From NCBI RefSeq assembly GCF_964204645.1, contig NC_134028.1:26160345-26224344 (forward strand): a DNA stretch of 64,000 nt, read 5' to 3'. Each line of letters starts with the position of its first letter. Position 1 is the first letter of the stretch. The stretch comes from Tubulanus polymorphus. Lineage: Eukaryota; Animalia; Nemertea. Position numbers and translations under genes: made by a program. The notes beneath the pieces were generated by a model that was not told the origin of the DNA, ran no database searches, and saw nothing but the letters and a program-made list of their open reading frames with translations. Shown one piece after another: positions 4,815 through 51,600 of the stretch.

Positions 4815-5360
4815 ACAGTGAAATCCACCTTAGGCCAGTAGCACCAATGTTATTTTGGACTGTAAAAATTTCACCGAGTTGAGAATCAGCGAACCCGGTA
4901 GCGTTGGGACTGCTGTAAATATTTCACAGTGAAATCCACCTTAGGCCAGTAGCACCAATGTTATTTTGGACTGTAAAAATTTCACCGAGTTGAGAATCAG
5001 CGAACCCGGTAGCGTTGGGACTGCTGTAAATATTTCACCGAGTTGAGAATCAGGGAACTCGGTAGCGTTGGGACTGCTGTAAATATTTCACCGAGTTGAG
5101 AATCAGGGAACTCGGTAGCGTGTTGGGACTGCTGTAAATATTTCACCGAGTTGAGAATCAGGGAACTCGGTAGCGTGTTGGGACTGCTGTAAATAGTTCA
5201 CCGAGTTGAGAATCAATGAACTCGGTAGCGTGTTGGGACTGCTGTAAATATTTCACCGAGTTGAGAATCAATGAACTCGGTAGTGTGTTGGGACTGCTGT
5301 AAATATTTCACCGAGTTGAGAATCAGGGAACTTGGTAGCGTTGAGACTGCTGTAAATATT
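4815..5360. repeat. Minisatellite with a 53-55 bp unit (8 copies) and a 111-bp duplication
   Basis: Unit TTCACCGAGTTGAGAATCAGGGAACTCGGTAGCG(TG)TTGGGACTGCTGTAAATAT starts at 4870, 4981, 5034, 5087, 5142, 5197, 5252 and 5307. Confidence 0.95.
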
Positions 5361-5864: not shown

Positions 5865-6031
5865 CCTTTATAACGTCTCATTTCTGATGACGAATCGAAT
5901 ATTTCTGACGGTATTTAAAACTATTCTAAAGACTTGGATAAAGGTGGCGACCACCTTTATCCAGAGCTAAGTCTTTAAAATAGACCGTCAGAAATATTTG
6001 ATTCGTCATCAGAAATGAGACGTTATAAAGG
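5865..6031. mobile_element. Foldback/MITE-like near-perfect palindrome
   Basis: ~48-bp terminal inverted arms with one mismatch, plus nested inner arms TGGATAAAGGTGG-cga-CCACCTTTATCCA. Confidence 0.65.
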
Positions 6032-7239: not shown

Positions 7240-10200
7240 GTAAGTATTTTGTGTTTGACACAATCGTGGCTTTTAAGGTTCCTCGAGCCTCGTTGACCGT
7301 CCCGTTATGCAGTAATTCCAGTCGTTGACGATCAACGAAATAACTGCTTGGTCATTCATAAGATGAAAAAATTATTGACGCGGGGAACTATAAACGGCGC
7401 GTACCACTTAACGGTCTCTGCGATACGCTTCACTTCTTCTTTACTGTCATAGTGAAACGTTTAAACGCGACATATTTTTGCATAGATGTATAAAATAGGA
7501 TAACAGATAGATGTATTATATGTACGTATTGATTCAGAAGCATTTCTGGCCGTAGATTCCCCCGAGTACACACAGCCCGCTATAGCGTTACGTCACTGTA
7601 ACACCATTAACACCGTCGATGTTTTATTGGCGATTTCACGGCGCTTTGGTCAACCTATTACGTCCAATAAAGCATTAACGGCAGGTAATAATGTTAGTCT
7701 AGCGATGACCGAATTGACAAAAACGGGAATGCGGGTGTTTTTTTCGAGGAAATGCGACAGTAACAATCTGTCTGATGGCGTCTTGGTCAATTCATCAAAG
7801 CTCGATTTACGTATCTCAAATTGCGTCATTTCTAATGCATTGCCCGATAAGACAGGTTTACACTAACAATCTGTCACACGAAAACAACGTTATAGAATAT
7901 CTTTCACCGAGAACCTTATAGAGTCTGTGAACCACAGAGTAACAACCCCGGTGGCGACAGGGTTTCTCGGTCGAATGTTCTCCTCTGGTCTCTCCCCCAT
8001 TGGGAAAAAGAAACATCGAACCCATATAATGCCCTGCCTGGCGCTTAGCGGGTTGAGGGTGTTTAAAAAAAAACATAGTAACAACAAACATGACCCATTC
8101 TCCAGGACTGGGTGAATATAGATTATTTAGACGACGTGTGTTTTTTGCACATGACACATTTTTCCCGAAATTTGTAAATGACAATTAATTTACGTGTTTT
8201 ATTTATTTTTGTTGTCTCGAACACCTACGGGCAAACTATGACGTCACGTCAACTGCGACTTTACTTGAGAATCAATGTATCTTATCGGGGTCGTCACTAG
8301 GACTTTTTTAATTATTTGAATGTGAAAAAACAAAATGTGGAACTAAAAAATGCGGAACTTTAGGGTCGTCAGTACACCCGACCGCCGACGGGCATACTTT
8401 TGTTTAGAAAAGAAATACATTTGTTTAGAACACAGAAGAAATGAACAAATTATGCATGAATACATTAATATATGCAGGATGAATGCGATCAGTAGTAAAT
8501 ACCACTCGCGCTTAACGGTGCACTGTGACGTCATGTGCACGTGGTCTATAGACCCAACGTGGGCACCGTATATTCAAAAAATTGTTTCATTGATTTCGGA
8601 AACAGACTCCTGATGACGTTACATTACGTACATCACGTTCTTAGATCAAAGTACACCCCAGACTGTGTAGTCTGCGGTAGCCATATGACGGTAGAATTAA
8701 TTAGTTTTACTTCATCAACTAATCAAGAAGCAGACAACTACATCAAATACACGTGCACCTGTTCCATACGACGCGCGCACCTGTTTCATCCGACTACGCT
8801 GTTATATGGGATGAATTAATCCTTAAAATCAGCGCAATATTAATCAATATATGATAATCTTTAATTTGAGATGTAATCCGTGAATTAAATCGCATTAATA
8901 TATCGACTTCGATAGAGTTCAAACCGTGGTCATCAGTCCCTCGAGACTGATCAATGAAAAATGATTTGCTTTTCATTTAGAACGAAATTATGAGATATCC
9001 TTTGCATCTCAAATCGGTTGCCAATAATATATCATTCTAGGATTTTCGTTTCGCTTAATTACGAAATTATAAGATTTCTTTCTTTAATCTTATTTTCATC
9101 TTTCAATGACTTCAGATCGGTTTCCACAGTCGTTCGACTATCAATGATTACGAATGAATATTTAATGAAATATCTCATACGAAACTCAGATGATGAAGTG
9201 ATTCTTAGGTCATTCTGTAAGTTGTAATAGCGGGGTCGCTTCCAGTTCGAGTAGGTTACATCGAAAAATGAATTGCCCCAATTTATCATTTCATTTGACT
9301 ACGTCCAGATGGTAGTACTGTGAACGAAATAATGAGAATGTAGGAGACACCAAAATGGGAGAGAGAGAATGAATTATGGAACTAAACATGGTTTTATAGG
9401 TACTGATATGATGTTGGACTGTCCGGCTAAGGTGAAGTACCGTATACGGACTGCTCAGTGTACTGTGAAATTGAATATGAGTTATTATTATGAAATGAGT
9501 ATCATAAAATACTGTTGCACGAAGAGAATTACATATCTATAAGGTGAACGGCCATCAAATCACTAATTAGATATCACGATGAAGAGTTCCCATGTATTAT
9601 GTATGGATTCGACACCACCACTCGTGTTCAATAATATTCCCCTAAACCTTATGTATGTAATTATCATCATTAATTTAATACCGAACTGTCGCAAATAGGT
9701 ATAGATAGATAGAATCGTGATTACAAGAGATTATTGAAATCATGTACGTATTAGTGAAATATAAAGCTATTATCATTGCGTCAGTCAGCTCGAGTGGAAT
9801 TAGAAGTAAATAAATCATGATGAGTTTCGTCTAAAATATATATTTCAGTACAAAATGAACGCCGAATTTCACAATTTTTGTAATGTTATTTTGATACGTC
9901 AATATTGATGACGTAGTGGCTCGCAGAACCATAGTATTTATCAATATATAACAACGTTATTGTAACGGTTTTAAATAAAGGCATCAAATATGGACGTGAA
10001 AATCAGAACTCTAGTTTTACAGGTCCATGAGCCAAACCACCACAACATGAAATATATGACTGAAGGAGTGCTAGTTACTGATGTTAATGGTTTAATTAGT
10101 GAGCGAAAGTAAGACTTCTTCCGTTGACGCGCACGACGGAAATTTAAGCAAGATATTTACAACTCGGGGGCCATTTTTAAAGATTAAGTTAACGATCAAA

Positions 10201-10465
10201 AGACTTATCTAACCTTTTGGTTGAAGTTTGTCGGTTAACTGTTATGGTATCTATCCAATGGTTAACTGTTGAAAAATTGATTATATGTATATCTAATCAA
10301 TGCTGTCTACATAGCAATAGGGAAACGCAAGTACCATAATGACAGTAGGAACCTATCCACTTCTACAATTTACGATCATATTTTCCGATGACATAAAACA
10401 TTCCCGTTATTTCTACCCATTCATATTTCACGCATCTGTAGATGATATTTTTCCTTTCGTTGTAG

Positions 10466-10579
10466 GAGAACTACAAGCGCGGTTTTCGAGCTCTGTTTAC
10501 GAAATGTCTGTGTTGTCCGTGCGTCAAACCGGAAGAACCATACCAGTACAACTATAGATCGAGCGTGCGTTTAGACTAA
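10466..10579 (+). CDS. Leucokinin-type receptor terminal exon A (helix 8 and Cys-rich tail)
   Basis: Acceptor tttcgttgtag, phase 0. Encodes ENYKRGFRALFTKCLCCPCVKPEEPYQYNYRSSVRLD*, continuing ...GLLN as helix 8. Confidence 0.75.
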   Translation, partial: ENYKRGFRALFTKCLCCPCVKPEEPYQYNYRSSVRLD

Positions 10580-10602
10580 ATGTTTTACTACTGTCGTTTT
10601 AG

Positions 10603-10809
10603 GAAAAATACAAGCGAGCGTTCTGTGCTATTCTTTGTGTGCAAAGACCGTGCGGTAGCTCCGAAAAAGAAGTCGGCGACTCGGATGAGAGTCGTAAATC
10701 TACCTCCAGCGAAATGGCGGCCAACCGGATCGTTATTGGCACCAATAGTTCTCGGTTTAAAAGATACCAACGCGTTCAGTATGTCGATGACGATTCAAGT
10801 TTTATGTAA
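10603..10809 (+). CDS. Leucokinin-type receptor terminal exon B (alternative helix 8 and Ser/Thr-rich tail)
   Basis: Acceptor gtcgttttag, phase 0. Encodes EKYKRAFCAILCVQRPCGSSEKEVGDSDESRKSTSSEMAANRIVIGTNSSRFKRYQRVQYVDDDSSFM*. Confidence 0.75.
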   Translation, partial: EKYKRAFCAILCVQRPCGSSEKEVGDSDESRKSTSSEMAANRIVIGTNSSRFKRYQRVQYVDDDSSFM

Positions 10810-12240
10810 ATGTGGTAGGCTTATCAAAGACCCGTTTCGGCAAGATGGCTGCCTCCAGAATAACCAGTCTCGTTACGTATCTACGTTCAAGTCGATCGAT
10901 GACGTCGTTGAGGGCGATTCGTGGAGGCAGCCATATTGGGAGGTTCTATAAATGTTGTCTACCAACCAATGTTTGTATATATCAGCACCAAATATTCACG
11001 ACGATTTATTACGGAGAGGATTGAGAATGTTCGTGTTTTGTGTTTTACCTGAAAATTCGTTCTCAAGTTCATCTTGAGTCGGAGATTTGAATGTTCGATC
11101 ACGAGTGGAATTGAGCGCGCGCGCATTCTTACAGCCCCAAACAGCGATTGAGACGCTGGTGTTTTTCGGTGTTCCAACGCTAAGGTTTGATCCCGTGTTC
11201 CGCTATTAAACCTTTGTTAACCCAACCGATTTTGTGACGTAAACGTAGTGAGGCTTTCGAGAAAAGTGTGTATAACCTTCGTTTGTTTTTGTATAAATCA
11301 TTGAAAACGCTTTATGTAATTACAACGGAAATTGTTGAGAATTTGAAGAATATAGATTTGCCCGTATATTGTATGTAAACAAGAATTGTTCAAATATTAC
11401 TATGTACAAATACTATATTGTTTGTTAACTATAAAGATATTTTCAAAAATGTCCTTTTCAGACAAACTTCGTGTGTTAGTGACGAAATACGATTCGAAAG
11501 ATTAACCCTCTCCCCGTGTGTCTAGTTCAACAGTTTTGAGTTAGAGATCACAATGAGTAAGAATTAGTTCATTTTCAAATTATTTGACTTCGGTTAGATT
11601 CTAACTGACAACTGTTGAACTTTATACAAAAGACGCATGAGTGAAACTACTATTCATGATGAGAAAATACACCCTTTATAACTGTTTAAATTCTGGTTTG
11701 TAAAAAATGAATGTCCCAGCGAGAGCAATTCCCGCATCTACGATTGTGAAAATACAAGTTGTTATATGGATAAGCCGGAGCTTGTTCCGCAGTATTCTGA
11801 GGCGGATCTGCGTACATAACTCACTGCGTCGTTTTCAATCATGAAACGATATAACGAGTCAAATTTTCATTTGTAACACTGTCAAACTGGGTCCTGATGA
11901 CGTACAAAGTGACTCTCCTACAAGTCTGAAAGTTATATACCCCAAATATCCGAGGTTTGGAGTTGTTTCATCTGCTTTTGTCAGTGTGTGTATTAACCGT
12001 ACTTTCTCGATATCAAAGTGAATATTTTTTCAGCCACATCACACATTACTGTGTAAAGATCAGTCACACGCTGTTGTCAATAATTTTGTTAATAAACCAT
12101 TGATAAAATCTGCTGAAATCGCTGAATATTGTTTTCATTTTTTTTTGCAAAGCGGTGAATGCTGAATGGACCTCAGTTGTGATGACTCCAGCAGTGCGTG
12201 CAGAGTTGGGTACTCGAGAGGATGAATGTAATGTTTTGAC

Positions 12241-12475
12241 GACCAGTCACCACACCTGTCTGGTCACCAGTCACCACACCTGTCTGGTCACCAGTCACCA
12301 CACCTGTCTGGTCACCAGTCACCACACCTGTCTGGTCACCAGTCACCACACCTGTCTGGTCACCAGTCACCACACCTGTCTGGTCACCAGTCACCACACC
12401 TGTCTGGTCACCAGTCACCACACCTGTCTGGTCACCAGTCACCACACCTGTCTGGTCACCAGTCACCACACCTGC
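12241..12475. repeat. 24-bp minisatellite, about 10 copies
   Basis: (ACCAGTCACCACACCTGTCTGGTC)n, with essentially perfect copies. Confidence 0.97.
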
Positions 12476-15400
12476 ACTGACCAGATAAACTACCAAACTT
12501 CGTCAATCGCTGCAGTACGCTGTTCTGCCCTTTCCGGGAACATTTTTTTTCAAATGCTTCGCCCACACACAAAACCGTCCCATCAACCTTTAAAATAAAA
12601 GAGGGCATATATTTATGAGTCGTGGCAGATAAATCTTAACAAAAATCCCACCCAGGTGTCCCCAAACTTAGTTTAATGCCTGGAAATTGCACCAAAGAGG
12701 AGTGAATTTTCTAGATGATTTTTCCCGATTGACGTGAATGCTTGTCCGCCCTTTTGTTAAAAGTTGTGCTACCCTCCTTGTTTCTGGTTCGAGCAAGGGA
12801 GTTCGTGCTTAGGGGGTTCGAGGCGACGAAACCGAGTAAATATAGCTACCCTATCAACTAAATATTTCTGTTTTTTCAAGATGTAATTTTGACTAAATTA
12901 TTTTGTTAAGATTTGTAATTTTGATTATCAGTCATACAAGTGTAGTACACACTTTGATTAAGAATAAACTATCATATATACTTAATTATCTTATGATTAA
13001 GATATTTAATTATTATGCGTGGAATTCTTTTAATCGAAACAAAAATAGGTTGAGTCGAACTTTAAGCGCATCAGTAAATACATACATTATATTGATACAA
13101 TCACTATTGGATATAAATGATTTTCCTATATTATAATCCCGTAGCTCATGAATCAATGAATTCGTGAGAGAGATATTTCAGAACATCAAATCACTTTTTA
13201 AGCTCGTTACAAAATCATTAATTTCATCATCACGTTGAAACAAAACACGTCGCTGCAAATAACTAAAATCAGAATCCGATAAGATATCGTAAATCGTTTG
13301 CGTGTGTGTTAAAACAGTGGCTGATTGAAGTGCGGAGACACGAGAATGAAACATTATACCTTTCAACTGCAACGCAATTAAATATCATATTTCAGTGAAA
13401 ATTACACCCTTTAAAGTTGAAAATGACTCTAAACAATATCAAACTAGCAGCGTAACTACACTTAACACGAGTATACGCATACATGTCGTGTGCGTTTATA
13501 GTTCACTCAAGCGAAGTTGAGAACGAATGCTCTTTGAATATCGATAAAACGGTTAGATTGTTTCTTGTGAAAGTTACTTTATTTTTATTAGCCCCTCGTT
13601 TGTACTATATAACAATATCCTCGGGGATACAGGCGTGCCCGAAATACATTGATGAATTTACAGACAGGTCGATAATGACTCCCTGAAATCTTTGAACATT
13701 AAGTTCACTTCGTAATTATTTCCTTCTATCTATTTGATTTGTGAGCGCACAATCTTACAGTGCGTGTTTTGGTCACGGCATCAAGGCTGTAAACAACGAC
13801 ATCAGTAAATTCAAATTAGACCCATAACATTATGCGATGCATTCGATAGATAAATAGTTTCACCAAATCTAACTAAATCACGAAGCAGACTTTCTAATTT
13901 TCGACTACAGAAGTCAATAAATTTCGGGGCCCGATTCCACAGTTTCCACGGATAAGTTCGACGGTCAAAAATCAGTTTATTTCCAATCTCAACAAAATCG
14001 CAACGAATCTACCAATGAATTGGGTCAATCCCTATATTAAGAATTTTATGAATTTTGTCAATTTCATAATTTTTGAGCCAGATCGAGAACAGTGGAACTG
14101 AAGTAACGCGTGGAGGCGTCAGTCTGAACTGTACACGCAGTACGTAGAAGGTACGGGAAGGTCGGTGAATAGAGGTTCACTTCTAAGAGCTAACTGTTCA
14201 GGCGATGAAATAGAAAAAACATATCGCCACGGGTAAGATGAAAGACAATGTAAGATCTAAAGAGAATGGACGACGTGATCAACGCGCAGTGAAAAGCTCA
14301 CATCAAACACGGTGTAATTTAACCAGTCGTTTACGGAGACACGTTACTCACTGTACGATCGGGCATTACTGTTATTTCTATGACGTGTATATTTGTCGAA
14401 CCACGCTCTTCCTGAGCCGCAAATCCTGATCGCAAAACTCGACACCAAATCATTCGCCCGCTTTTATGAAAACGTAAAAGGACACACACATAGCTAAAAA
14501 TCTGTTCTCTTTAAACAAGATATTATTTCATAGGATTGTCTTTTGTTTTCGCCCGGGTGAAATTGTACGCCCTATGTAAGTTGGATGAAACAAAGCTGCC
14601 TTCATCCGGTAATAAGATGACAGATCCGTTCGTTGGATCATGATACAAAGTCCACTAATGGAAAAGACGCGGTGATGTGTAACCCTGCACCCCTCAGATT
14701 ATCGTGACTCTAAGCACGATAGAGTTTAAACCCGTACTTTGAGTAGGTCAATAGTAACCCGTCACATATCGTTGATTTTCTGTATTACATTACATTATTC
14801 TATATATGAAGTTACATATTGTGAATAAAGTCAGATCGTGTTCGGATTCCATCGTTGCGCTCCTTCCTTGTGGTGTCGACGATCACACATGGGCGAACTT
14901 CGGTTTTCGTATCTAGTCGACAAGTGGTCCGAACTAATAACTAGGTCCGAAATAAAGCAACAGTATTCAGAACTTCACCCGAGACATGTTTAATTGAAAA
15001 ATGACGTCAAACATTTTTCAGCACAATATCAAAAACTTATCGTCCACACTTGACACTACATTAGTTATAGTCCGGGATGGGTCGAGGATAGTTCGCTGTG
15101 GATTAGGATTCGTCGAAGATATTTCTATAAAATAGCTAATTACGTAAGAAGGCTAAAATGGAATGATCCATTGCGGTTGGGCGAATTTGCGTGACTTGTC
15201 TTTTCAAGACGAAAGACGGCTGGTATAATCGTGTTAGAAATGTTTCAGTTGATTCTCCGAGAATATTTTCACCGAGCTACGCGTGTGTTAAAGTCGGAAT
15301 AGATTCGCGCATTAAAATTCCATTAAAACGACTGAGACTTCCTGATTTTTAGTTAGTCTGTGACAAGCCATGCTAAGTATGGCCGATGGCACTTTCCAAC

Positions 15401-16888: not shown

Positions 16889-22705
<5,817 letters not shown>

Positions 22706-31628: not shown

Positions 31629-34251
31629 TCATAATCTCTTCAACGTTTTTTTCTTATCTTTTTTCTTTTTTTCGATGAGTTTTTTATCGCCGGCGTGTTT
31701 CTTCGCCATCGGACCTTCGCAACATTTTTCCGTCAGCGACGACGAGGTCGAGGTTGACGCGGAGACATTATCAGGTGAATTCGATTGCCTGAAATATTTC
31801 AAATACATCTCTATCTGACATTTCATAGAACAGGTACCAGTAATTTTGAAGAGAACAGTAGACTACGCCTGTAGCTTTAGCGCTGGGCCTGACAGGATGT
31901 TACCGGTATAGACTAATACCACTAATAAATTTGTTCACATCGATAAACAGGGTCCCTTAGTACGGATGAGTCATTCCTTGATTTAAGGAGTTTTCAAGGA
32001 GAATTTCAAATTTTGAGGAATTGTCTACATCACTTTCATATCCTAATTACTGTAGACTTTTCCTAAATCGGCACTGTTTATCTCGGTAAACCATGAATTC
32101 AGAGGTTTTGTAAATAAATTACACCACTAAACCCGGTTTCTAATTCAGTAACCGCCATATTGGGCAATGAAAAGATCCTGGTCCAAACTGTACTGATTTA
32201 GCGTAATCTACAACCACAAACATTTCTAGTTGCATATTTCTCAAAATTGAAAGAGTTTCATAGGAATTTTGGGCATTATGCTCAGATTACAGGAGTTTCA
32301 AGCACATTTAAACACAGTTTCTATTTAGGAGTTGTTAAGGAATCAAGGAGTTGTAGGAACCCTGTAAACAGTAAGGACAGGAAATCATTCTATTATTCCT
32401 ACCGAAGTGGTTTAGCGTGTATTTCCGTGTACATTTTCGCTCGTTGCGAATAATCGTCATATTTTTCTTGCAACAGTTTTCCGGCCTCTTCGTTCAACGC
32501 CGATTCAGGATTTGGGACGATCAACAAACATTTCACAGTCTGTAGAAATATCGAATTAAATAAAACCGACATCATAAATCTGAGTTATCAAAGTTAGGGA
32601 GAAAAACCTATAATATTTCCTCTGATCTAAACCTACCAATAATATATGCTTTATTCCCAGATCTGCCTTCCAATCTTTTTTCAAAGTGTTCACGCAAATT
32701 TCACCGTTTTTCGACACGTTTGGATGGAATATTTTTGTTACGAAAAAACCTTTCGGAGGCTCGGCGGGGAAGTTCTTCCCCAAGACTAGTTTCATACGAA
32801 AATGTCCGCCAGCATACGGGGTTCCAGCTGCAATCAAAATAAACATTCTTTCATTCTATTCATCTTGAGACAATCAATTACAGAACCACGAACTACAAAC
32901 ATCTGCGGGCAGGTCCAAGCTGAATAGGGGGTGCGGGGTCCAGTAGTATCCACAGCATAGGCCCTATGTAGAGCATCATAGATCAGTGGAAACAACCACT
33001 AGGCCTACCACAAGACTGAGTGAATGTTGAAGGGGATGCAGGGTCCAGGCTGATGGGCGATTCAGTGTCTGTAAGGTAGGGTGCAGAATTCGACTTGAGG
33101 TGATGCAGGGTCCAGGGCTGAGGCGGTGGTAGAGTAAAGGCTGAGGGGGGATGAAGAGTCCACGCTGAGGGGGGACCAGAGTCCAGGCTGAGGGGGGATG
33201 AAGAGTCCAGGTTGAGGGGGGATGAAGAGTAAAGGCTGAGGGGGGATGAAGAGTCCAGGCTGAGGGGGGATGAAGAGTCCAGGCTGAGGGGGGATGAAGA
33301 GTCCAGGCTGAGGCGGTGGTAGAGTCCAGGCTGAGGGGGTTCATTGACTCACCAGGTCCATCGATTGTAGCTTGAATATCAGTAATATCTTCATCATTAA
33401 ACGATATTTTGATACCCTCTGGAGGATCGTTCGTCAACTCTTGTAACTCTTTCACAATTCGGCGAATTATTTGAGGTGAAAAATTTTCAACATTACTCTG
33501 AAAAATACGAAACACATAATTGCCATGAGTCGTGGCCTTGACCTCACGGGGTCATCGTGTAACGCTGGCGGTACAAAACAAAATCAAAGCTCTTCCCCAG
33601 TCACGTATAGAATTACATTTCATACGCTAGAATAAAAGATAAAAGGGATAGAGCTTTTTTTTGGTTTTGCATTCCAGACCAAGCTTTCATCATGTACAGC
33701 TCCTTAAAATACAGTTTAAAATGGACTAAAAATCAAAGTTATAGGTCAACTGCCAGTCAGTCCTCTCTGGTCCTAAGACTTCAATCAGGTATGCACTACA
33801 AAAAAAATGAATGAGCTAGGCCACCTGATGTGCTCTCAAGCAAAGTTGAAATAGACATTTGAAATTATTCTGGGGGGTCACTGAACTCCTATAACCAAAA
33901 GACGAGAGAGAGAGAGCGAGAGGGGTCATTTTCAAAATAATTGACAAATCGGAGTCCCATTACATTACTATTAGATTATATGAACGCACAGCGGTGATGT
34001 TGAATTGCTGGGGTTTGAAGGGTAGCCACACAACTGATCAAAGGCCTATTTGATGATAAGCCCCTATAGCTAATAGGTCGGGTCTGTGTGTGTGTGTGCC
34101 TGTGGTACAAAAAATCTCAAGTATGATGAGTGTATGACAGAGAATTTAAAATCGAAAGAAAGGGATTCCCCGCAGTTTTAGTCAAGTATTCCGTTAATCT
34201 GGCCGAGTTGATCGAGTCATTCCGATAGCTATCGATACTCACCGTGGACAT
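31629..34251 (-). CDS. UBE2S: Ubiquitin-conjugating enzyme E2 S
   Basis: Exons: 34243-34251 (MST), ~33353-33497 ([12 protein letters not shown]...DPPEGIK), ~32637-32827 (GTPYAGG...[22 protein letters not shown], catalytic Cys), ~32403-32539 ([20 protein letters not shown]) and 31629-31788, which ends in the diagnostic [13 protein letters not shown] tail. Confidence 0.96.
33100..33340. repeat. G-rich 24-bp minisatellite in UBE2S intron 2
   Basis: (GAGTCCAGGCTGAGGGGGGATGAA)n, about 9 variably degenerate copies starting right next to the splice donor. Confidence 0.9.
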
Positions 34252-40462: not shown

Positions 40463-40727
40463 TGCAGACAGTCCGAGGTGAGAGGCAGAACCCTGTCCCA
40501 GTGAACCATGCAGACAGTGAGAGGCAGAACCCTGTCCCAGTGAACCGTGCAGACAGTGAGAGGCAGAACCCTGTCCCAGTGAACTGTGCAGACAGTGAGA
40601 GGTAGAACCCTGTCCCAGTGAACTGTGCAGACAGTGAGAGGCAGAACCCTGTCCCAGTGAACTGTGCAGACAGTAAGAGGCAGAACCCTGTCCCAGTGAA
40701 CCGTGCAGACAGTGAGAGGTAGAACCT
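40463..40727. repeat. 39-bp minisatellite, about 6.5 copies
   Basis: (CAGACAGTGAGAGGCAGAACCCTGTCCCAGTGAACYGTG)n. Confidence 0.95.

Positions 40728-41584: not shown

Positions 41585-41676
<92 letters not shown>
41585..41676. repeat. (TA)n microsatellite
   Basis: About 90 bp of uninterrupted AT dinucleotides. Confidence 0.99.
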
Positions 41677-41681
<5 letters not shown>

Positions 41682-42654
41682 CAAAAAATATTACCGGGGA
41701 ATTTCGAAGGGTGCTTTAAATCTAAGACCGTATTGGGCAATACGGCTTCAGTCTGAGTCCACCCCTGATGGCTATAGTGACGATCAAAAAGATTGTTAAT
41801 TTCGCAATTACTCTTCGGCAGCTCAACACTCGCTTCTAATCGGTCGACAAGTGTCAGTGTGTCCGGTATAAAGTGGTGCTGTGAATATAGGGTTGAGAAA
41901 AGAGGTGGATTGCAAGCTAATGAAAACCACTGACTGGTGAACTAACAAAGTTCAGAGAAGCTAATTAACTAAACAAATAAAGACTTTCAAAGAATTATAT
42001 TTACTTTCATACAACAATTATACAAAATGCCAGGCGTGCTCGAGGAATTATAATGGAAGATCCCCAAACACGTGGACTGATGTCAAAAACAATCCAATCA
42101 TGGACGTATAAACTATAAACTAAAGTTTATACGTCGATGGTCAAACCATAGACTATTCTATATAGATTTATTCTATTCTCATGACAAAAATTATACCTCG
42201 CTAAATGACAGGTAGGAATTATCATGTAAGTTCCTTGTTAACAAGTGAACCGTATTTTAAAATCAGCTCAACATAAAAGCATTCAAACTAGAGACAAATC
42301 CTACTGTCTGTCACACCTACTCTCCGTGCGACGTTTTGGTCCGTAATTTCGTTAATAATCGGTTTATCTACCTTTATTATGCATCAATTTGTTCAGCGAG
42401 GAATTTGCATTCAGAAATAAAGTTTTCCCCATATATATTATACCAGATAGAGCCCTAGACACTATTTTATACATCTTTCCCCCAGGAATTCATTAATGCG
42501 ATGGGTAAAAGTAACTTAAACTTAACTTTCAGTATTGCTGAGTTCAGTGTTCTTTTTTCGCCATCTTCTTCATTGTAGTCGCCTTCAGCATCTTCTTCTT
42601 CATCTTGCGAGTCCTGAAATGAAAAAAAAGAGAAGAGCGATGAAAACCTGGTAA

Positions 42655-43344
42655 GGAACAAAACTAATGTTCGAAAGCTTTTCAGCTCTCCGTCGCCTGT
42701 CACATGCCGAGAACACCAGACAATGAGCCAGCCAGGAATATACTGCCCTCTACACGCCCTAACACAGAACGCGAAACCCAGGATGAAGACACCTTACTTT
42801 CACCATTTACCGACAGGGTGTGCCGGGTGACGTCAGTAACTGACATACCTGCAAGATTGTTTGTGACAAAAATAGAGTAGCGCAACTGGATTGCCCGCAC
42901 TAGCACTCAAAGGAAGGCAAGACTTATCCCTGCCCGAAGCAACCCACTGGGAATCAATGAATACTAACACTCAAAGGAAGACAGGGAAATTAATCCCTGC
43001 CCGAAGCAATCCCTTAAAAGGAATCAATGAATGCTAGAACGCAAGGGAAGGCAGAGAAAAATCTTTGCCCGAAGCAATTCCTGAAAAGGAATCAATGAAT
43101 ACCAGTAGACAGTCCAGCTTTACCACTCCATTTTCACCGCAAACAATCCGACAGATCTGCCAGTCATTGACGTCACCTAGCACACTGTTGATAGGTGGGG
43201 AGAGTGAGGCCTCGTCATCTTGGATTTCGTGTTCCATATGAGGGCGTGTAGAGGGCAACCATTTCCTGACCGACTCTTTCTCTGACATCCTCGACACGTG
43301 ACCGGCGAAGGAGAGCCGACGCTTTCAGACATTAGTTTTGTTCC
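42655..43344 (-). ncRNA. Candidate long hairpin RNA: inverted repeat with a structured triple-repeat loop
   Basis: Arms at 42655-42895 and 43108-43344 are reverse complements with about 75% identity. The loop contains three copies of a ~65-nt unit. The inverted repeat is certain; transcription is inferred. Confidence 0.5.
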
Positions 43345-45206
43345 AGCAAACGTTGAAATTCGACAGAGAAATCGGCCCTGAAAAATAAAACGGGTTAGAA
43401 CCTGCAAAAAAGAACGGGTTAATAAACACAGAACAGTGCAGGACAGCACAGAGACGAACAGTAACACATAAAACATAAAGACGTCGTTCCTCAGGAAGCA
43501 GGAACAGGAGCAGGAGCGGGAGCGCAGCGAAAATCGCCAGGAGGAGAAGGTAGCATGTTCACAGTGTGAGTGTGCAGAGGTGAATGGCCTATGCTTGTGT
43601 ACACCGTGGTCAGCCGGTGACGTATTCAATAGCGCGTAGAATGCTATCAACAACTTTGAAAAACCTCAATTGTGTCTCTATTGTTGAATTGAATTTCAAT
43701 TGAGAGCTTATAGAAGGTTCTACTGCCGGGTTGTACGCGCCAGTAGCCAGCTGAACAATATCGTGGAACTTTAAGGCCATATAAAATAAATTACTCGATT
43801 CTCAACAGCTCGTCTCTCGAATTTAGCGCCGCCTGGTTTTTTCAGTCTGTTCCGGTCGTTTTTTATATGCTACACTCTTCGAGCGTCAAGTTGATCGTTC
43901 GTCTGGGGTCCTAATTAGCCTGCTGGGCATGAAAAATGAAACCGAGTTCTATTTAAAGGGTCACAGTCATATAATAAACACAGAATTAAATAAACCTTTT
44001 AAACGGAGCAGTGACTTAGACCCGGACGCCGCCAACACAGACTCCGATACCGCCTAAATTGACAGAGGAATTCAGTCATAGTATTAACTATTCAAAACAA
44101 AAATTAGTCTCAGTTGCGTTTTCATTGCTTTCACGCCCAGTTTACAGTTTCAATTAGTGAAAGATTTCATATGATTACTTCTAAGAATATGGTCACCACT
44201 CTGACAAGACAATTAAACTATCTGATAGTGTCTATCATAATAATTCGGTGGGGTAGGGCTAGCCTGGTTGGTTTAACCTACGATCAAGTATCTAACTATT
44301 GCTTGTAGGTTTAACACGCTTGCTAGAGAGCTGCTGGGTTCGATCTCTGGATGGGCTCGAGTTTTTTTTCTAATAATCCGAATCCCAAGGTATCATCGTA
44401 AGTGATGTGAAAACCTGGTGACCTGCGTGTGGTTAGTTTCACCTAAGAGCAATTATCAAATAGATTAGATAATTGCTCGTAGGTTTCACGATCAAAATCC
44501 CATCCATTCTTTTATAAAAGCTTTTAGCACCATAACGATTAGGTAACTAATGATCTAATATGCTAGACCTGGTAATCCTGCAATCAAGTTGTAAACTCTC
44601 AGACGAGCTCTGATTATCTGGCATCGGGTGATGGTGAAAACACTCTCGACAGTGAAATATATTTTGGCTCATTTCATTCGAGGATTAATGCGATTTCTTT
44701 CCATTAAAACATTACAACACTCCTTTTTTCTTCCCCTTCAAACCGCAACGGTCCTGGGCAAATAGCAATATAGTAATTATACAAAGTATATAATACATAT
44801 CTAAAGTCTGAAGGACAGATCGTATTTCTGTAATTAATTAGCGCAGGAAAAAGTCTTTCTTTTCTCTAGTGCATTTTCCAAACAGGGGATAAGATTTCAA
44901 TGAAGTAAAGTAGGACTGTGTTTAAGTAATATGATACACAGCTGCCATCACTAAAAATGCTGTGGGGGTGCCAGTGCATACATAGAACACCGCTCACTGT
45001 GTAGACAGTGAAAGCGGAGTCTGAGAGCTGCAAAATAGCATCACGTGCTACAGCCCTCCAATCAGCTAGTCCATCTCTAAAACATCAGCAACTGGGGAAG
45101 ATGCCAACACAAGAAAGTTCCTACGAGAAAACTTTCTGAACTATTTTTACGGAGCGGTGCAACAGGAAATTGACGACGGTCCGGCGAGGATCGAATCCAG
45201 GTAAAG

Positions 45207-47225
<2,019 letters not shown>

Positions 47226-48558
47226 GAAATCGGTAGACCGTACCAGAAACCCGTTTACAGAGAGGTCTAGACACTTTCCAGAGTCAGGATGACAAAGATA
47301 TATTGAAGTTATGAGATTTATATTCCCATCAATGAAAAAAAGTGAATCCTCTATAGTTTTCAATACATTTTAGCTTCATTATTTCTATCAACCATACCGT
47401 GTATAATAACCTCTTAGAAACACAAGGTAATTCTTCATAAACTCTGGAAGGCGAAGAACATCCGATCTTCAGTTAAGGGGTTCCCTTATTTAAGAACCGC
47501 TGCAAGTTAATTAAATCTGGTTTTAGGTTTCATAATCCTAAGCAAGTAAGCAAGTCTAAGAAGTTATATTAAACTCTGAAGTTTTCTAATAATTCTTTGT
47601 AGATAAAAAACGTATAGATTATAGATTTTAGTTCCCGAATATCTATCCTTATACTCTATTAAATGAATGTGTATTTGATTTTATAGTGTTGATCCCTTGT
47701 GCCGGGATGGTGTTGGTATTATGCATGCTCAATATATTATGGCGTATAGCTCCATATGTTATAGGTAACAACGTCGTATTATTATTTTCAGTCTATTGTA
47801 TGTAAATTTTTGCTGGTTTCTTCTTTTTAAAATTGACCAATGAGAAATAGATAAATTAATGAGATTATGAAAGACATGTATTTGTGTATATTTGGCAAGT
47901 TATTAATTATACAGTTATTAATTAAAAAAAGCGAACTGAAAGTTCTTCTACTAATTTGTAGCTTTTTGTCGTCGATTCCAAAAATCTCTGAAATCGTTTA
48001 TGATTTTATGAGTTACGAAGAAAATAGTTTTAACACACACACACACACATACAAATAAGTGATCAAAATCGTTTTAATTAAACTGATTCTGTGAAATATA
48101 TATATTTGAATTGGGTTGTATCGGGTGGATGGGAGAAGATAGGGTCTTGAGTGAATGCAATCTGGATTGATGAAATAACTATGAAATACAGTGGTTGTGA
48201 ATTTAATGATCATGAAAGTATTCCAGCGTTTTGCTTTCTGTATATTATAGGTTTTTCCGCTGTGGTTTTTTTTCTGTATATATTTTAGTTTGATGATATA
48301 TGAGTTATAATGATATTATTTGCAGTGAAGGATGTATGAATATGTGTATTTTTAGCTGTTAAGTGTATCGTATCAAGTTCTGCTGCAGTTGCTGCTGTAT
48401 GATGATACAAGCCACTACTGATGCGGTGTATTTGGGTTATCATTCAATTTCAACTGATACATGAATTTATTCAGGGGTTTGTTTTATAGATAGGTATTAT
48501 ATTTAACCTGGTTGGGGATGGGGGTTAACTCAATTGAAAATGAATTGAGTTAGCCCTG

Positions 48559-48665
48559 GGCCCAGTTTCACAAAAAGGTTTAACTCTTAAATCGATTTAT
48601 TTAATTCATTAATTCAGTTTATCTTAAATTGATTTAGGCCTTAATCCTTCTTGTGAAACTGGGCC
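48559..48665. mobile_element. Harbinger-like MITE in the putative ZCCHC24 3'UTR
   Basis: TIRs GGCCCAGTTTCACAA and TTGTGAAACTGGGCC, with flanks CTG and TTG. Confidence 0.7.
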
Positions 48666-51600
48666 TTGGGTAATGAAATTGAGCTTAACCCGAGATAAAG
48701 ATAATACCAGTCTATAAAACTGGCCCCTCACGTATATATCATACATTGAATGTCAAATATTGCCTAAAATGCCTGTATGATGTTTTTCTTGATATGTATT
48801 TGATAGAAGATGAAGGCCGATCGTATTGCAATTTACATATAGTTATTCTTAAATTGTATCCAAGAAAAGTTTATTGTTCATTTTTATATCGAGTGTCTTA
48901 TCAACTGTCTATCACTGAGTGCAGAACAATTGCTAATCTTCCAAAGACCTAATATATGTGTCAGTCTGAGGAAGATTTTGACTCGGGGCATGGCTAAGAC
49001 CAGCGTAAGATGGTAGTTGATTCTATCGCCAATCTAACAACTTGAATTTAAGACTATTTTTGGTCTATAATCACCACTGTACAACTGGGCCCGAACCTTA
49101 AGTGGTGACTGACTCTAGCATTTTCTCTTGGTCTACTTTTTGAATGAGGAACTGATAGATCATCGGCGTGAACCAGGGTTATAATCTCATCTACGGACTG
49201 AATGCTAAGTTCCATATTCAGATCATGAATGTGGATTTGTATACACGATGGGTTTCAGTCCCAAGTTGATGTGGATGGTCATCCACATGTTCATCCATTG
49301 TGCAGATTTGAACTTGTGGGTAGGAATCCCACGTTAGACTGGCTATCGAACAAGGATGGTCATTGTTGTAAACATTTGACAAATGATTACTCCAATGATG
49401 GTCTTACTGCTGTCAAATCTGAGACTCTCGCCCCTGGTCTGGTTTGTCAATATTTGCCTCATAGGATATTCAGCTTTATGTAATTCTGTCACACATCAGG
49501 TTAATTCTGCTTGGTTATCGGTTAGATAATGATTTTCTATAATATGTGTGTATTTTGTAATGATGTAAATATTTAACTTATTAGTTTTAGATTATGTAAT
49601 TGTTTACGTGTTTCCGAGAATGAAACATGTAGAATGAACTGGTTTATTGGTGCTAAGTATGAAATGATATATGATATTTTGTGTGTAGATTCTCAGATAA
49701 TGAATATCCACAATATTTTCTTCATTTAAATATCTGGAATGAACAATAATTTGCAATAAATTATTGACAGCTGGTGTTTTGAAATTTAAGAGCGTAATGT
49801 TAGTTTGTACTTGAAACTATGAATAAACATGAACTAGATGGAAGGCACTTGAGAATATTAAAATCAGCTAAGTTTGTCCCCAGCCTATGAGTTCATACTA
49901 TAATCATTTTGAATGCACATCTGGATCTTAATCTATTATAATAATCAGGGGAAATTCTCTTGAATGAGGTAAAATATTGTGTAATATTTGCTGGATCTAA
50001 AATACATTGTACAAGACAATCAATCATAAGGATATATTATGCAAATAAAGTAAAATTATTACTTCATTATGAAACATGGACTCATTGTTTATATTTGTTT
50101 GGCAGTCACTTTGAGGAAATTGGGTCCCAAATCACCTGATTTACAATTATTTGAGATATCGTAATCAATGATTGGGCATAACTCTATTTAATGTTTTAGG
50201 ACAGGGCAGGTTCTCTAGTCACTCAGTCCATAAACAGGCGAGGGGCTTGATTGTCCTTTTCTAGAATATGGAAAGAGTTTTAATGTCCTGATTTGTTTGT
50301 ATTGGCACGGAGCCAAAACTCACCAGCTGCACAGGTACGTATGATGAATCCAAGAGAGGCAAGTCCATCAGTCAAAGAAGTGCCCTTTGAATATTTCTCT
50401 GGAGAATGTTCAAGAACCCTATTTTCCTTGGCGCTTGCCTATTCAGGGTTTATGAGATACATGTAACTGGCTTTTTAATTTGTCTGGGCCCGGCTGTGAT
50501 CCTTGTGACGGTGGTAACCATTGTTCAAACGAGAATCCTCAATCACCCAACTGTAGAACTAGTGGCTCTAGATTACCTGTTCCTCCTGGGATTTAGAGCA
50601 TGTATTCAAGATGGATCACTGGACTTCATTCTAATCAGATAATGAACGTTATTTTTGGGAATCAGAATATTGGTGGGAACCTGAGCATGTTGATAATAGT
50701 TCATACAAACAGTGGGCCTCCCTTGAGGACATGACATTGATGAAGGGAAGTAACCCAGCTGCAATAGACTGCAATGTTTGTAGTTCCTCATCTATGAAAT
50801 AATCAAATCATAACAAGCCATGTTTTATTGTGAAGAAATGTCATTTATTTGGTCAAATAGGTCGTTGACATGAAAAAACTTTCGTTTTTCTTTAGCGTTT
50901 AAACTCACAGCATTTTGAAGACAATCAGTATTTGTATCATCATCATCAATCATTTAATTATGATCAGTATTTTTTTTATTCAATTTTATACCAAGCTGGA
51001 AATACACAGATATATAGATTAATGTAAACAATAACGAAAGCTGTTGCGTTACAACTATAGAATCATTACACCTTTATATCTACTATACATCATTATTATT
51101 ATCATCATCACTTTCAAAAAGCTAAACATTTAATTCGAAGCCGCGAGTCGGAGTTTACTTCTACTACATTACACTAACGGTTTCTTCATGCAAAGCGGAC
51201 AATCTTGTTCAAAGACCAGAGCTTTTTTTCTCATTAAGAACGGAAGATCATCGCTGTACTATTAATCGTTTTCGTATATTACTATATTTATGATATTATC
51301 AGACAACAGAATTTTCGACAGAATGATTATTTATAAATTCAGAGCTGATCGATGATCTTATCGTATGATAAAATAGATTATATTCAGTGTAACCAGATGG
51401 GAAATGATCTGATCCCGGCACCCTAGTACCAATCGGTGATCCAACTCCCGGTACCCTCCTAGTACCTAATCCTGGCACCCTAGTCTACCCCAGAATACCA
51501 GCCATTATCAACTACCAAAAAACGCTGAAGCTCTAGATGGTGAAAAACATTATTAAAAATACATCTATTTATCATTTCTACATAGAATATGAACCGGCTC

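What the first reader, a model, noticed from the sequence alone, without database searches (positions are those of the whole stretch)
42655..43344. Candidate endogenous long hairpin RNA with strand-biased G:U compensation
Seen: two ~240-bp arms (42655-42895 and 43108-43344) are diverged reverse complements with only two small indels. By hand count, about 33 of the transition differences form G:U pairs if the minus strand is transcribed. About 13 would do so on the plus strand, and about 14 differences are transversions. Neutral decay of a DNA inverted repeat should be roughly symmetric. Known: Drosophila hpRNAs are G:U-rich long foldbacks processed by Dicer into endo-siRNAs. Inference: selection acts on a minus-strand RNA duplex, so this could be an hpRNA-like gene or ADAR substrate, possibly transcribed divergently from the ZCCHC24 promoter about 1.7 kb away. 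The arms do not preserve a protein (MSRMSEKESVRKWLPSTRP vs MPRTPDNEPARNILPSTRP).
Basis: partly seen in the sequence, partly recalled or inferred. Interest (0 to 1): 0.85.

Follow-up and report, generated by a model that had tools for sequence, protein, structure and literature searches.

The report
Giant RNA hairpin in multicopy repeat
A ribbon-worm repeat present in roughly 150-230 copies carries a 690-base inverted repeat whose mismatches favour G:U pairing on one strand, so it is likely a mobile element whose RNA folds into a long selected hairpin, not a single-copy small-RNA gene.

Summary
Arms 42655-42895 and 43108-43344 align over 237 columns: 176 Watson-Crick, 33 minus-strand G:U, 13 plus-strand G:U, 15 transversions (p=0.0045). 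The minus RNA folds at -397 kcal/mol, the plus at -307. The loop is 2.9 tandem 68-bp units, each able to fold as a three-way junction. The window is from the nemertean Tubulanus polymorphus. The hairpin is thus the internal core of a repeat of about 2.1 kb with roughly 150-230 copies, seen once in this window, and loop-unit number varies between copies. It is not a single-copy hpRNA tied to the ZCCHC24 promoter. Nor are the arms MITE termini: there is no TSD, and depth runs through the arm ends. Variants among copies mostly keep minus-strand pairing, while the family-wide mutation spectrum is near symmetric (126:115), which favours selection over mutation bias, though only modestly. There is no Rfam, Pfam or protein match, and transcription is untested. 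Best reading: a non-autonomous, probably LTR-type element with a selected RNA rod (0.45). Rivals: a multicopy hpRNA-like gene family (0.25) or biased decay (0.2).

The parts
41676..43779 (-). Multicopy repeat unit of about 2.1 kb that carries the hairpin; candidate ends TG...CA flanked by TATA on both sides (right end supported, left end weak)
   Evidence: X7 depth 135-1,258x over 41700-43813, 460 at 43758, 19 at 43868; TG..CA/TATA is 1 of 2 hits among 180 pairs tried, about 1 expected by chance
43097..43344 (-). 5' arm of the minus-strand hairpin
42655..42908 (-). 3' arm of the minus-strand hairpin; holds the two best donor-like motifs of the unit (42848, 6/7; 42797, 5/7)
42908..43102 (-). 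Apical loop: 2.9 tandem copies of a 68-bp unit, each predicted as a three-way junction with near-invariant linkers (CUUCGG in all three); other copies of the repeat carry an extra unit
   Evidence: (TRF); joint 43045 to 42951 in X1, X2 and 69 X7 reads
43378..43425 (-). Two tandem 3' splice-site-like motifs (43402, 43378), each with a branch-point motif, just before the 5' arm
   Evidence: motif match only, use not shown
42527..42640 (-). Strong polypyrimidine/AG motif (42614) just after the 3' arm, then an 87-nt purine-rich exon-like segment ending at a GT (42526); many copies diverge from the window 7 nt past that GT
   Evidence: loose end at 42519 (531 X7 reads, 0.92 agreement)
42301..42421 (.). 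Truncated piece of a separate, higher-copy short element (MITE-like) lying inside this copy
   Evidence: X7 depth about 2,030; low-agreement loose ends at 42300/42301
41585..41676 (.). (TA)46 microsatellite abutting the candidate left end
45207..47226 (+). Neighbouring single-copy ZCCHC24-like gene, used as the depth baseline; not part of the repeat

Best explanation
The hairpin is the internal core of a repeat of about 2.1 kb with roughly 150-230 copies, which is likely a non-autonomous mobile element copied through RNA (probably LTR-type) whose minus-strand transcript is predicted to fold into a 250-bp rod capped by a variable number of three-way-junction modules. Shown: the inverted repeat, the G:U bias, the high copy number, the variable loop-unit number, and the absence of any protein or Rfam match. 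Inferred: an old inverted duplication arose in the element's lineage (arms 74% alike, while 11,571 of 14,703 laid reads are 90-99% like this copy, so the arms diverged before the family spread). It was then kept paired at the RNA level, which tolerates G:U on the transcribed strand only. Inferred, untested: the rod decides the fate of the element's RNA. It would bury the two donor-like sites in the 3' arm and sit between strong acceptor-like sites, keeping the full-length RNA unspliced, while the loop modules would serve as protein-binding (packaging-type) signals. Dicer or ADAR action on the stem would be a likely side effect.
For: Copy number: X7 depth 1,132 and 1,258 on the outer arms against 7.8 (mean of 13 flanking bins) or 5.4 (from a 358-Mb genome), i.e. 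145-233 copies; X1 contigs show the same shape. One copy only in 64 kb. Sharp right edge between 43758 and 43868 and candidate TG..CA/TATA ends. Bias 33:13. Of the 21 variant rows listed inside 42655-43344, 12 are transitions at paired positions: 9 keep minus-strand pairing outright, 2 keep it if the partner carries its majority change, and 1 depends on the register. Spectrum across the whole laid stretch near symmetric, 126:115 (p=0.52). Arm differences are transition-rich (46:15 vs 241:198, Fisher p=0.002). Loop units keep stems while loops vary. No coding signal.
Against: No RT, integrase, PBS or second LTR in the window. The TG..CA/TATA ends are no better than chance given the (TA)46 flank (2 of 180 pairs, about 1 expected), and only 24 X7 reads crossed either end of the laid stretch, so the left end is poorly shared. 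Depth is uneven (82-1,258x), as in a mosaic or a gene family. Splice-like motifs fit an ordinary gene equally well. Three of the 33 G:U pairs are CpG changes almost private to this copy; without them the bias is 30:13 (p=0.014 against 0.5, 0.065 against 0.55). Read naively against the window's own partner base, 3 of the 12 transitions give A:C (9 of 12, p=0.15). Three listed transversions break a pair unless the partner also changed; the reads cannot phase the two arms. The RNAalifold covariation term for the three loop units is about 0. The table showed 40 of 454 variant rows.
Confidence: 0.45

Rival explanations
1. A multicopy Pol II gene family (spliced non-coding RNA or short peptide precursor) in which the rod is an exonic or intronic structure; if cut by Dicer it would be an hpRNA-like source of endo-siRNAs.
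For: 2 of the 12 strongest minus-strand acceptor motifs in 64 kb lie within 60 nt of the two stem ends (zone chosen after the fact, nominal p=2.5e-4). Many copies diverge 7 nt past the GT that ends the 87-nt exon-like segment. Drosophila hpRNAs are often spliced and change copy number fast (PMC10317233).
Against: 150-230 copies is far above the 9-20 tandem copies reported for Drosophila hpRNA clusters. Frame-shifting indels occur in many copies within both exon-like segments (table 4). No protein relative or target gene was found.
Confidence: 0.25
2. An old, functionless inverted duplication inside a repeat; the G:U excess comes from strand-biased mutation (deamination of the minus strand, or ADAR editing fixed by reverse transcription), not from selection.
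For: All 4 listed transitions that are nearly private to this copy go towards minus-strand G:U, 3 of them at CpG (p=0.06 one-sided). The bias loses significance at an expected share of 0.6. The per-base spectrum already gives 0.55.
Against: Family-wide spectrum 126:115. Six other inverted repeats in the window give 13:10 in total, with no common direction. G:C/G:U/A:U series at loop stem positions 43068, 43051, 42933, 42917. Outer stems are the best-covered part of the family on both arms.
Confidence: 0.2
3. The arms are the terminal inverted repeats of a MITE or foldback DNA transposon.
For: Long inverted repeats in a multicopy sequence; other MITE-like inverted repeats occur in the window.
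Against: No TSD of 2-12 bp at the arm ends. Depth is unchanged across the outer end of the right arm (1,258 then 1,247) and no loose-end pile is listed at 42655 or 43344 (6 X7 rows shown). DNA-level pairing gives little strand preference.
Confidence: 0.05
4. A single-copy hpRNA gene driven divergently from the ZCCHC24 promoter.
For: Orientation fits: a minus-strand transcript would be divergent from the plus-strand gene.
Against: The sequence is multicopy. This copy carries nearly private changes that weaken the stem and an inserted foreign fragment.
Confidence: 0.03

Closest known systems
Drosophila hpRNAs (hp-CG4068, hp-pncr009 family, hp-tHMG; PMC10317233, passages and section 7 read)
   Same: Long imperfect foldback; splice-like signals; copy number in flux.
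   Different: Those are defined by Dicer-2-dependent 21-22-nt siRNAs and often by homology to protein-coding targets, with at most 20 tandem copies in the passages read. Here there are about 150-230 copies, no target was found, and no RNA data were available.
Non-autonomous LTR elements (TRIM, LARD, solo LTR; ta-TRIM of Echinococcus, PMC4558846, passages read)
   Same: Non-coding, multicopy, in a spiralian; a structure-only packaging signal is proposed there; transcripts from those elements are sometimes cis-spliced.
   Different: No paired LTR, PBS or PPT is seen here; the termini and TSD are inconclusive; a 250-bp internal duplex is not described in the passages read.
C. elegans rncs-1 and edited long dsRNAs (PMC4408787, passages read)
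   Same: Long, nearly fully paired endogenous RNA, an ADAR substrate. Branched ends that hinder Dicer are recalled from memory, not from a call.
   Different: rncs-1 is treated as one gene with shown expression; this is a high-copy repeat with untested expression.
Revolver and Superior transposon-like gene families of rye (PMC2851119, passages read)
   Same: Dispersed 1.3-3-kb repeats with exon-intron structure or predicted RNA stems that blur the line between gene family and transposon.
   Different: Plant elements; no sequence relation was tested; Revolver encodes a protein.

Membership tests
hpRNA (endo-siRNA precursor) | Long imperfect foldback on one strand | tested here: met
   88% of 237 columns pair on the minus strand; longest helix 22 bp
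hpRNA (endo-siRNA precursor) | Transcribed on that strand | not testable with these tools
   No RNA holder listed; none of the four runs laid is on record as RNA
hpRNA (endo-siRNA precursor) | Dicer-dependent phased 21-22-nt siRNAs | not testable with these tools
   No small-RNA run offered
hpRNA (endo-siRNA precursor) | Homology of the arms to a target gene | tested here: inconclusive
   No protein relative, no codon periodicity; no genome held
hpRNA (endo-siRNA precursor) | Single or low-copy gene locus | tested here: not met
   145-233 copies
MITE / foldback DNA transposon | Inverted repeats form the element termini | tested here: not met
   Depth continues past the arm end
MITE / foldback DNA transposon | Target-site duplication beside the arms | tested here: not met
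   0 of 11 lengths (2-12 bp) match
Solo LTR / non-autonomous LTR element | TG...CA termini with 4-6-bp TSD | tested here: inconclusive
   41676-43779 with TATA; 2 of 180 pairs, about 1 expected; right edge agrees with depth
Solo LTR / non-autonomous LTR element | Paired LTRs with PBS/PPT or gag-pol in some copies | not testable with these tools
   No second copy in the window; no genome held
Solo LTR / non-autonomous LTR element | Multicopy and non-coding | tested here: met
Known structured RNA or self-cleaving ribozyme family | Match to an Rfam model or hammerhead core | tested here: not met
   0 hits at gathering score in 64 kb; 4 hits with E 2-5 in 42400-44000; one core-like motif at 41818, outside the hairpin, with no flanking stems on reading the sequence

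The most novel reading that the evidence does not exclude
An undescribed family of about 200 mobile or amplified units whose RNA is a 690-nt rod with an expandable array of three-way-junction modules: a structured-RNA class with no Rfam relative that uses one fold both to gate its own splicing and to feed or evade the RNAi and ADAR machinery in a nemertean.
Probability: 0.15. Interest if true: 0.8.

Novelty: new variant of a known kind. Interest (0 to 1): 0.5.

Why it matters
Long endogenous hairpins kept by selection are documented mostly in flies and nematodes. A family of about 200 copies in a ribbon worm supplies its own alignment, so covariation, editing and Dicer processing become directly testable from one assembly and a few RNA libraries. 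If the element reading is right, it shows a mobile element keeping 250 bp of dsRNA that should expose it to silencing, which needs explaining. If the gene-family reading is right, it extends hpRNA-like loci to spiralians. If it is biased decay, it is a caution that G:U asymmetry alone does not prove RNA function.

Tried and rejected
No whole genome is held, so copies could not be extracted. Run search: no RNA holder listed; this is no evidence on expression. Only one read-laying result exists (4 of the 10 listed runs), so the full variant list of the arms and the runs X3, X4, X6, X8, X9, X10 were not seen. Rfam: nothing. ARAGORN: 0 genes. Pfam on 7 frames: only UbiA at E 0.1, below cut-off. 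Homologue searches: arm frame none (46-149 aa only); hydrophobic frame none (42-135 aa only); acidic exon-like frame 2 hits at 28-35% identity, one of them a repetitive protein on inspection, both taken as chance. Atlas: no usable hit (the 85-aa frame scored recognition 2588, which the tool says does not show a real gene). Pattern scans: viral contigs 0 and 0; metagenomes 74 loci, 0 of 74 with a BLASTN match; phage records none. Earlier findings: nothing. Coding origin of the arms rejected: no period-3 signal (p 0.83 and 0.24). A Helitron 3' end was looked for by eye only and not seen. Flank folding: 43345-43779 ordinary (z -0.9); 41676-42654 mildly structured (z -3.5, 20 shuffles). Paper searches with no hit; this library lacks most subscription papers, so absence from print is not established. 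No supplements were read.

Full report
Observation. The inverted repeat is the longest in the window. A global alignment of 42655-42895 with the reverse complement of 43108-43344 gives 237 columns and two 2-nt indels: 176 Watson-Crick, 33 differences that are G:U on the minus strand, 13 that are G:U on the plus strand, and 15 transversions. 33 of 46 against 0.5 gives p=0.0045; the stem extends to 42908/43097 with 37:13. The minus strand folds at -397 kcal/mol and the plus at -307, with 51 G:U among 284 pairs on the minus strand; as ssDNA the strands differ by only 13.5 kcal/mol. The arm differences show no codon periodicity.

The loop is a tandem array, 2.9 copies of a 68-bp unit. Aligned, the three units fold on the minus strand as a three-way junction with near-invariant linkers and variable hairpin loops; of 25 predicted pairs one has a two-sided change, and the covariation term is about 0. 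Only the middle unit folds better than shuffles alone (z -5.3; the others -1.5). In the whole-hairpin MFE the units pair across each other instead, so the register is open. Splice-like motifs bracket the stem on the minus strand: acceptors at 43402 and 43378 with branch motifs before the 5' arm, and 42614 after the 3' arm; donors at 42848 and 42797 lie inside the 3' arm. Two of the 12 strongest minus-strand acceptor motifs in 64 kb are these flanking ones (zone chosen after the fact). These are motif matches; use is not shown.

Organism. An LLGL exon of the window is 99% identical to a Tubulanus polymorphus protein, a palaeonemertean with a genome of about 358 Mb by flow cytometry (PMC8468679, passages). 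The neighbouring plus-strand gene has the 3CxxC zinc domain and starts at 45207.

The decisive result. No genome is held, so I laid 4 of 10 listed runs on 41700-46200. In the raw genomic run X7, depth is 1,132 on the outer left arm, 1,258 on the outer right arm, 1,247 just beyond it and 302-404 on the inner stem and loop, against a mean of 7.8 over 13 flanking bins or 5.4 expected from genome size: 145-233 copies at 88% identity or more. X1 contigs show the same shape (8,763-13,502 against 38.7), and a 1,893-nt X1 contig over the flank shows that the organism is in that run. 11,571 of 14,703 laid X7 reads are 90-99% like this copy, so the arms (74% alike) diverged before the family spread. A joint from 43045 back to 42951 (X1, X2, 69 X7 reads) shows copies with an extra loop unit. 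Depth is 460 at 43758 and 19 at 43868, so the right edge is sharp; the left edge is not resolved (only 24 reads crossed either end). There is one copy in the window. The baseline depth is low and noisy, so the copy number is an order-of-magnitude figure.

Is the bias selection? For: of 21 variant rows listed inside the hairpin, 12 are transitions at paired positions; 9 keep minus-strand pairing outright (42791, 42860, 42907, 42917, 42931, 43051, 43103, 43236, 43327), 2 (42933, 43068) give A:U with the partner's majority state, and 1 (42928) pairs only in the within-unit register. Two more rows (42761, 42787) are mismatches here but Watson-Crick in most copies. The spectrum across the laid stretch is near symmetric (126:115, p=0.52; 0.55 per base), six other inverted repeats in the window give 13:10, and arm differences are richer in transitions than family variation (p=0.002). 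Against: only 5 of the 9 are independent of the window's own G:U pairs (5 of 5, one-sided p=0.03). Read naively, 3 of the 12 give A:C (9 of 12, p=0.15). Three transversions (42777, 42896, 43162) break a pair unless the partner changed too; the other 4 of the 21 rows are unpaired or register-dependent. Three of the 33 G:U pairs are CpG changes nearly private to this copy; without them the bias is 30:13 (p=0.014 against 0.5, 0.065 against 0.55). The table showed 40 of 454 rows and cannot phase the arms. I judge selection on a minus-strand RNA duplex likely (about 0.75), not proven.

What kind of repeat? Not a MITE with these arms as termini: no TSD and no drop in depth at the arm end. The stretch 41676-43779 begins TG, ends CA and has TATA on both sides, matching the right edge in the reads, but 2 such pairs among 180 were found with about 1 expected, and the left flank is a (TA)46 tract. 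No coding relative was found for any frame tried, and both exon-like segments carry frame-shifting indels in many copies. No Rfam family, tRNA or convincing ribozyme core; no relative in viral, metagenomic or phage collections.

Mechanism. I commit, at 0.45, to a non-autonomous element copied through RNA, probably LTR-type, whose minus-strand transcript folds into the rod. Replication through RNA explains why an internal duplex would be kept with G:U on one strand across a lineage. The placement of donor-like sites inside the stem and acceptor-like sites at its base suggests that the fold keeps the full-length RNA unspliced, and the expandable loop modules would suit a packaging-type binding signal; both steps are inference.

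Comparison. Drosophila hpRNAs are defined by Dicer-2-dependent 21-22-nt siRNAs and reach 9-20 tandem copies (PMC10317233, passages and section 7); this works like one in shape but fails the low-copy feature and is untested for processing. Non-autonomous LTR elements of Echinococcus are non-coding, sometimes cis-spliced, and are proposed to carry a structure-only packaging signal (PMC4558846, passages). C. elegans rncs-1 is a long edited dsRNA (PMC4408787, passages). Revolver and Superior are dispersed gene-like repeats of rye (PMC2851119, passages). Stable inverted duplicates are common and enriched in repeats in mammals (PMC5398296, passages), which tempers surprise. Searches for a prior description of such an element found nothing (one search listed 12 papers on the species, none on repeats by title), in a library that lacks most subscription papers.

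Verdict. Real feature, correctly measured, wrongly placed: a probable RNA-level structure inside a high-copy repeat. New variant of a known kind; interest 0.5, limited by the lack of any expression data and of the other copies' sequences.

Noticed in passing
window 42301-42421: 121-bp piece of a separate element at about 260-380 copies, with one true end at 42301 (diverse flanks) and a shared continuation beyond 42421 in most copies; an opposite-strand joint suggests terminal inverted repeats.
   Followed up: partly
window 42099-42139: Small hairpin with a stem of about 15 bp inside the multicopy unit, in a region of raised depth.
   Followed up: no
window 43325-43558 and 42527-42613, minus strand: A hydrophobic frame without an in-frame start in this copy, and an acidic 29-codon exon-like segment with a dibasic site, resemble pieces of a short secreted-peptide precursor; both are low-complexity, have no homologue, and carry indels in many copies.
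   Followed up: partly
window 5865-6031 and 48554-48670: Shorter inverted repeats (48 nt at 98%; 46 nt at 83%), probably MITE-like elements.
   Followed up: no
window 43814-44266: Depth of 2-8 copies extends beyond the main right edge, so a few copies share further flank.
   Followed up: no
window 4815-5360, 12242-12474, 17743-18088, 19010-19423, 33102-33339, 40478-40726: Several minisatellite arrays of 24-111-bp period, some apparently in introns.
   Followed up: no
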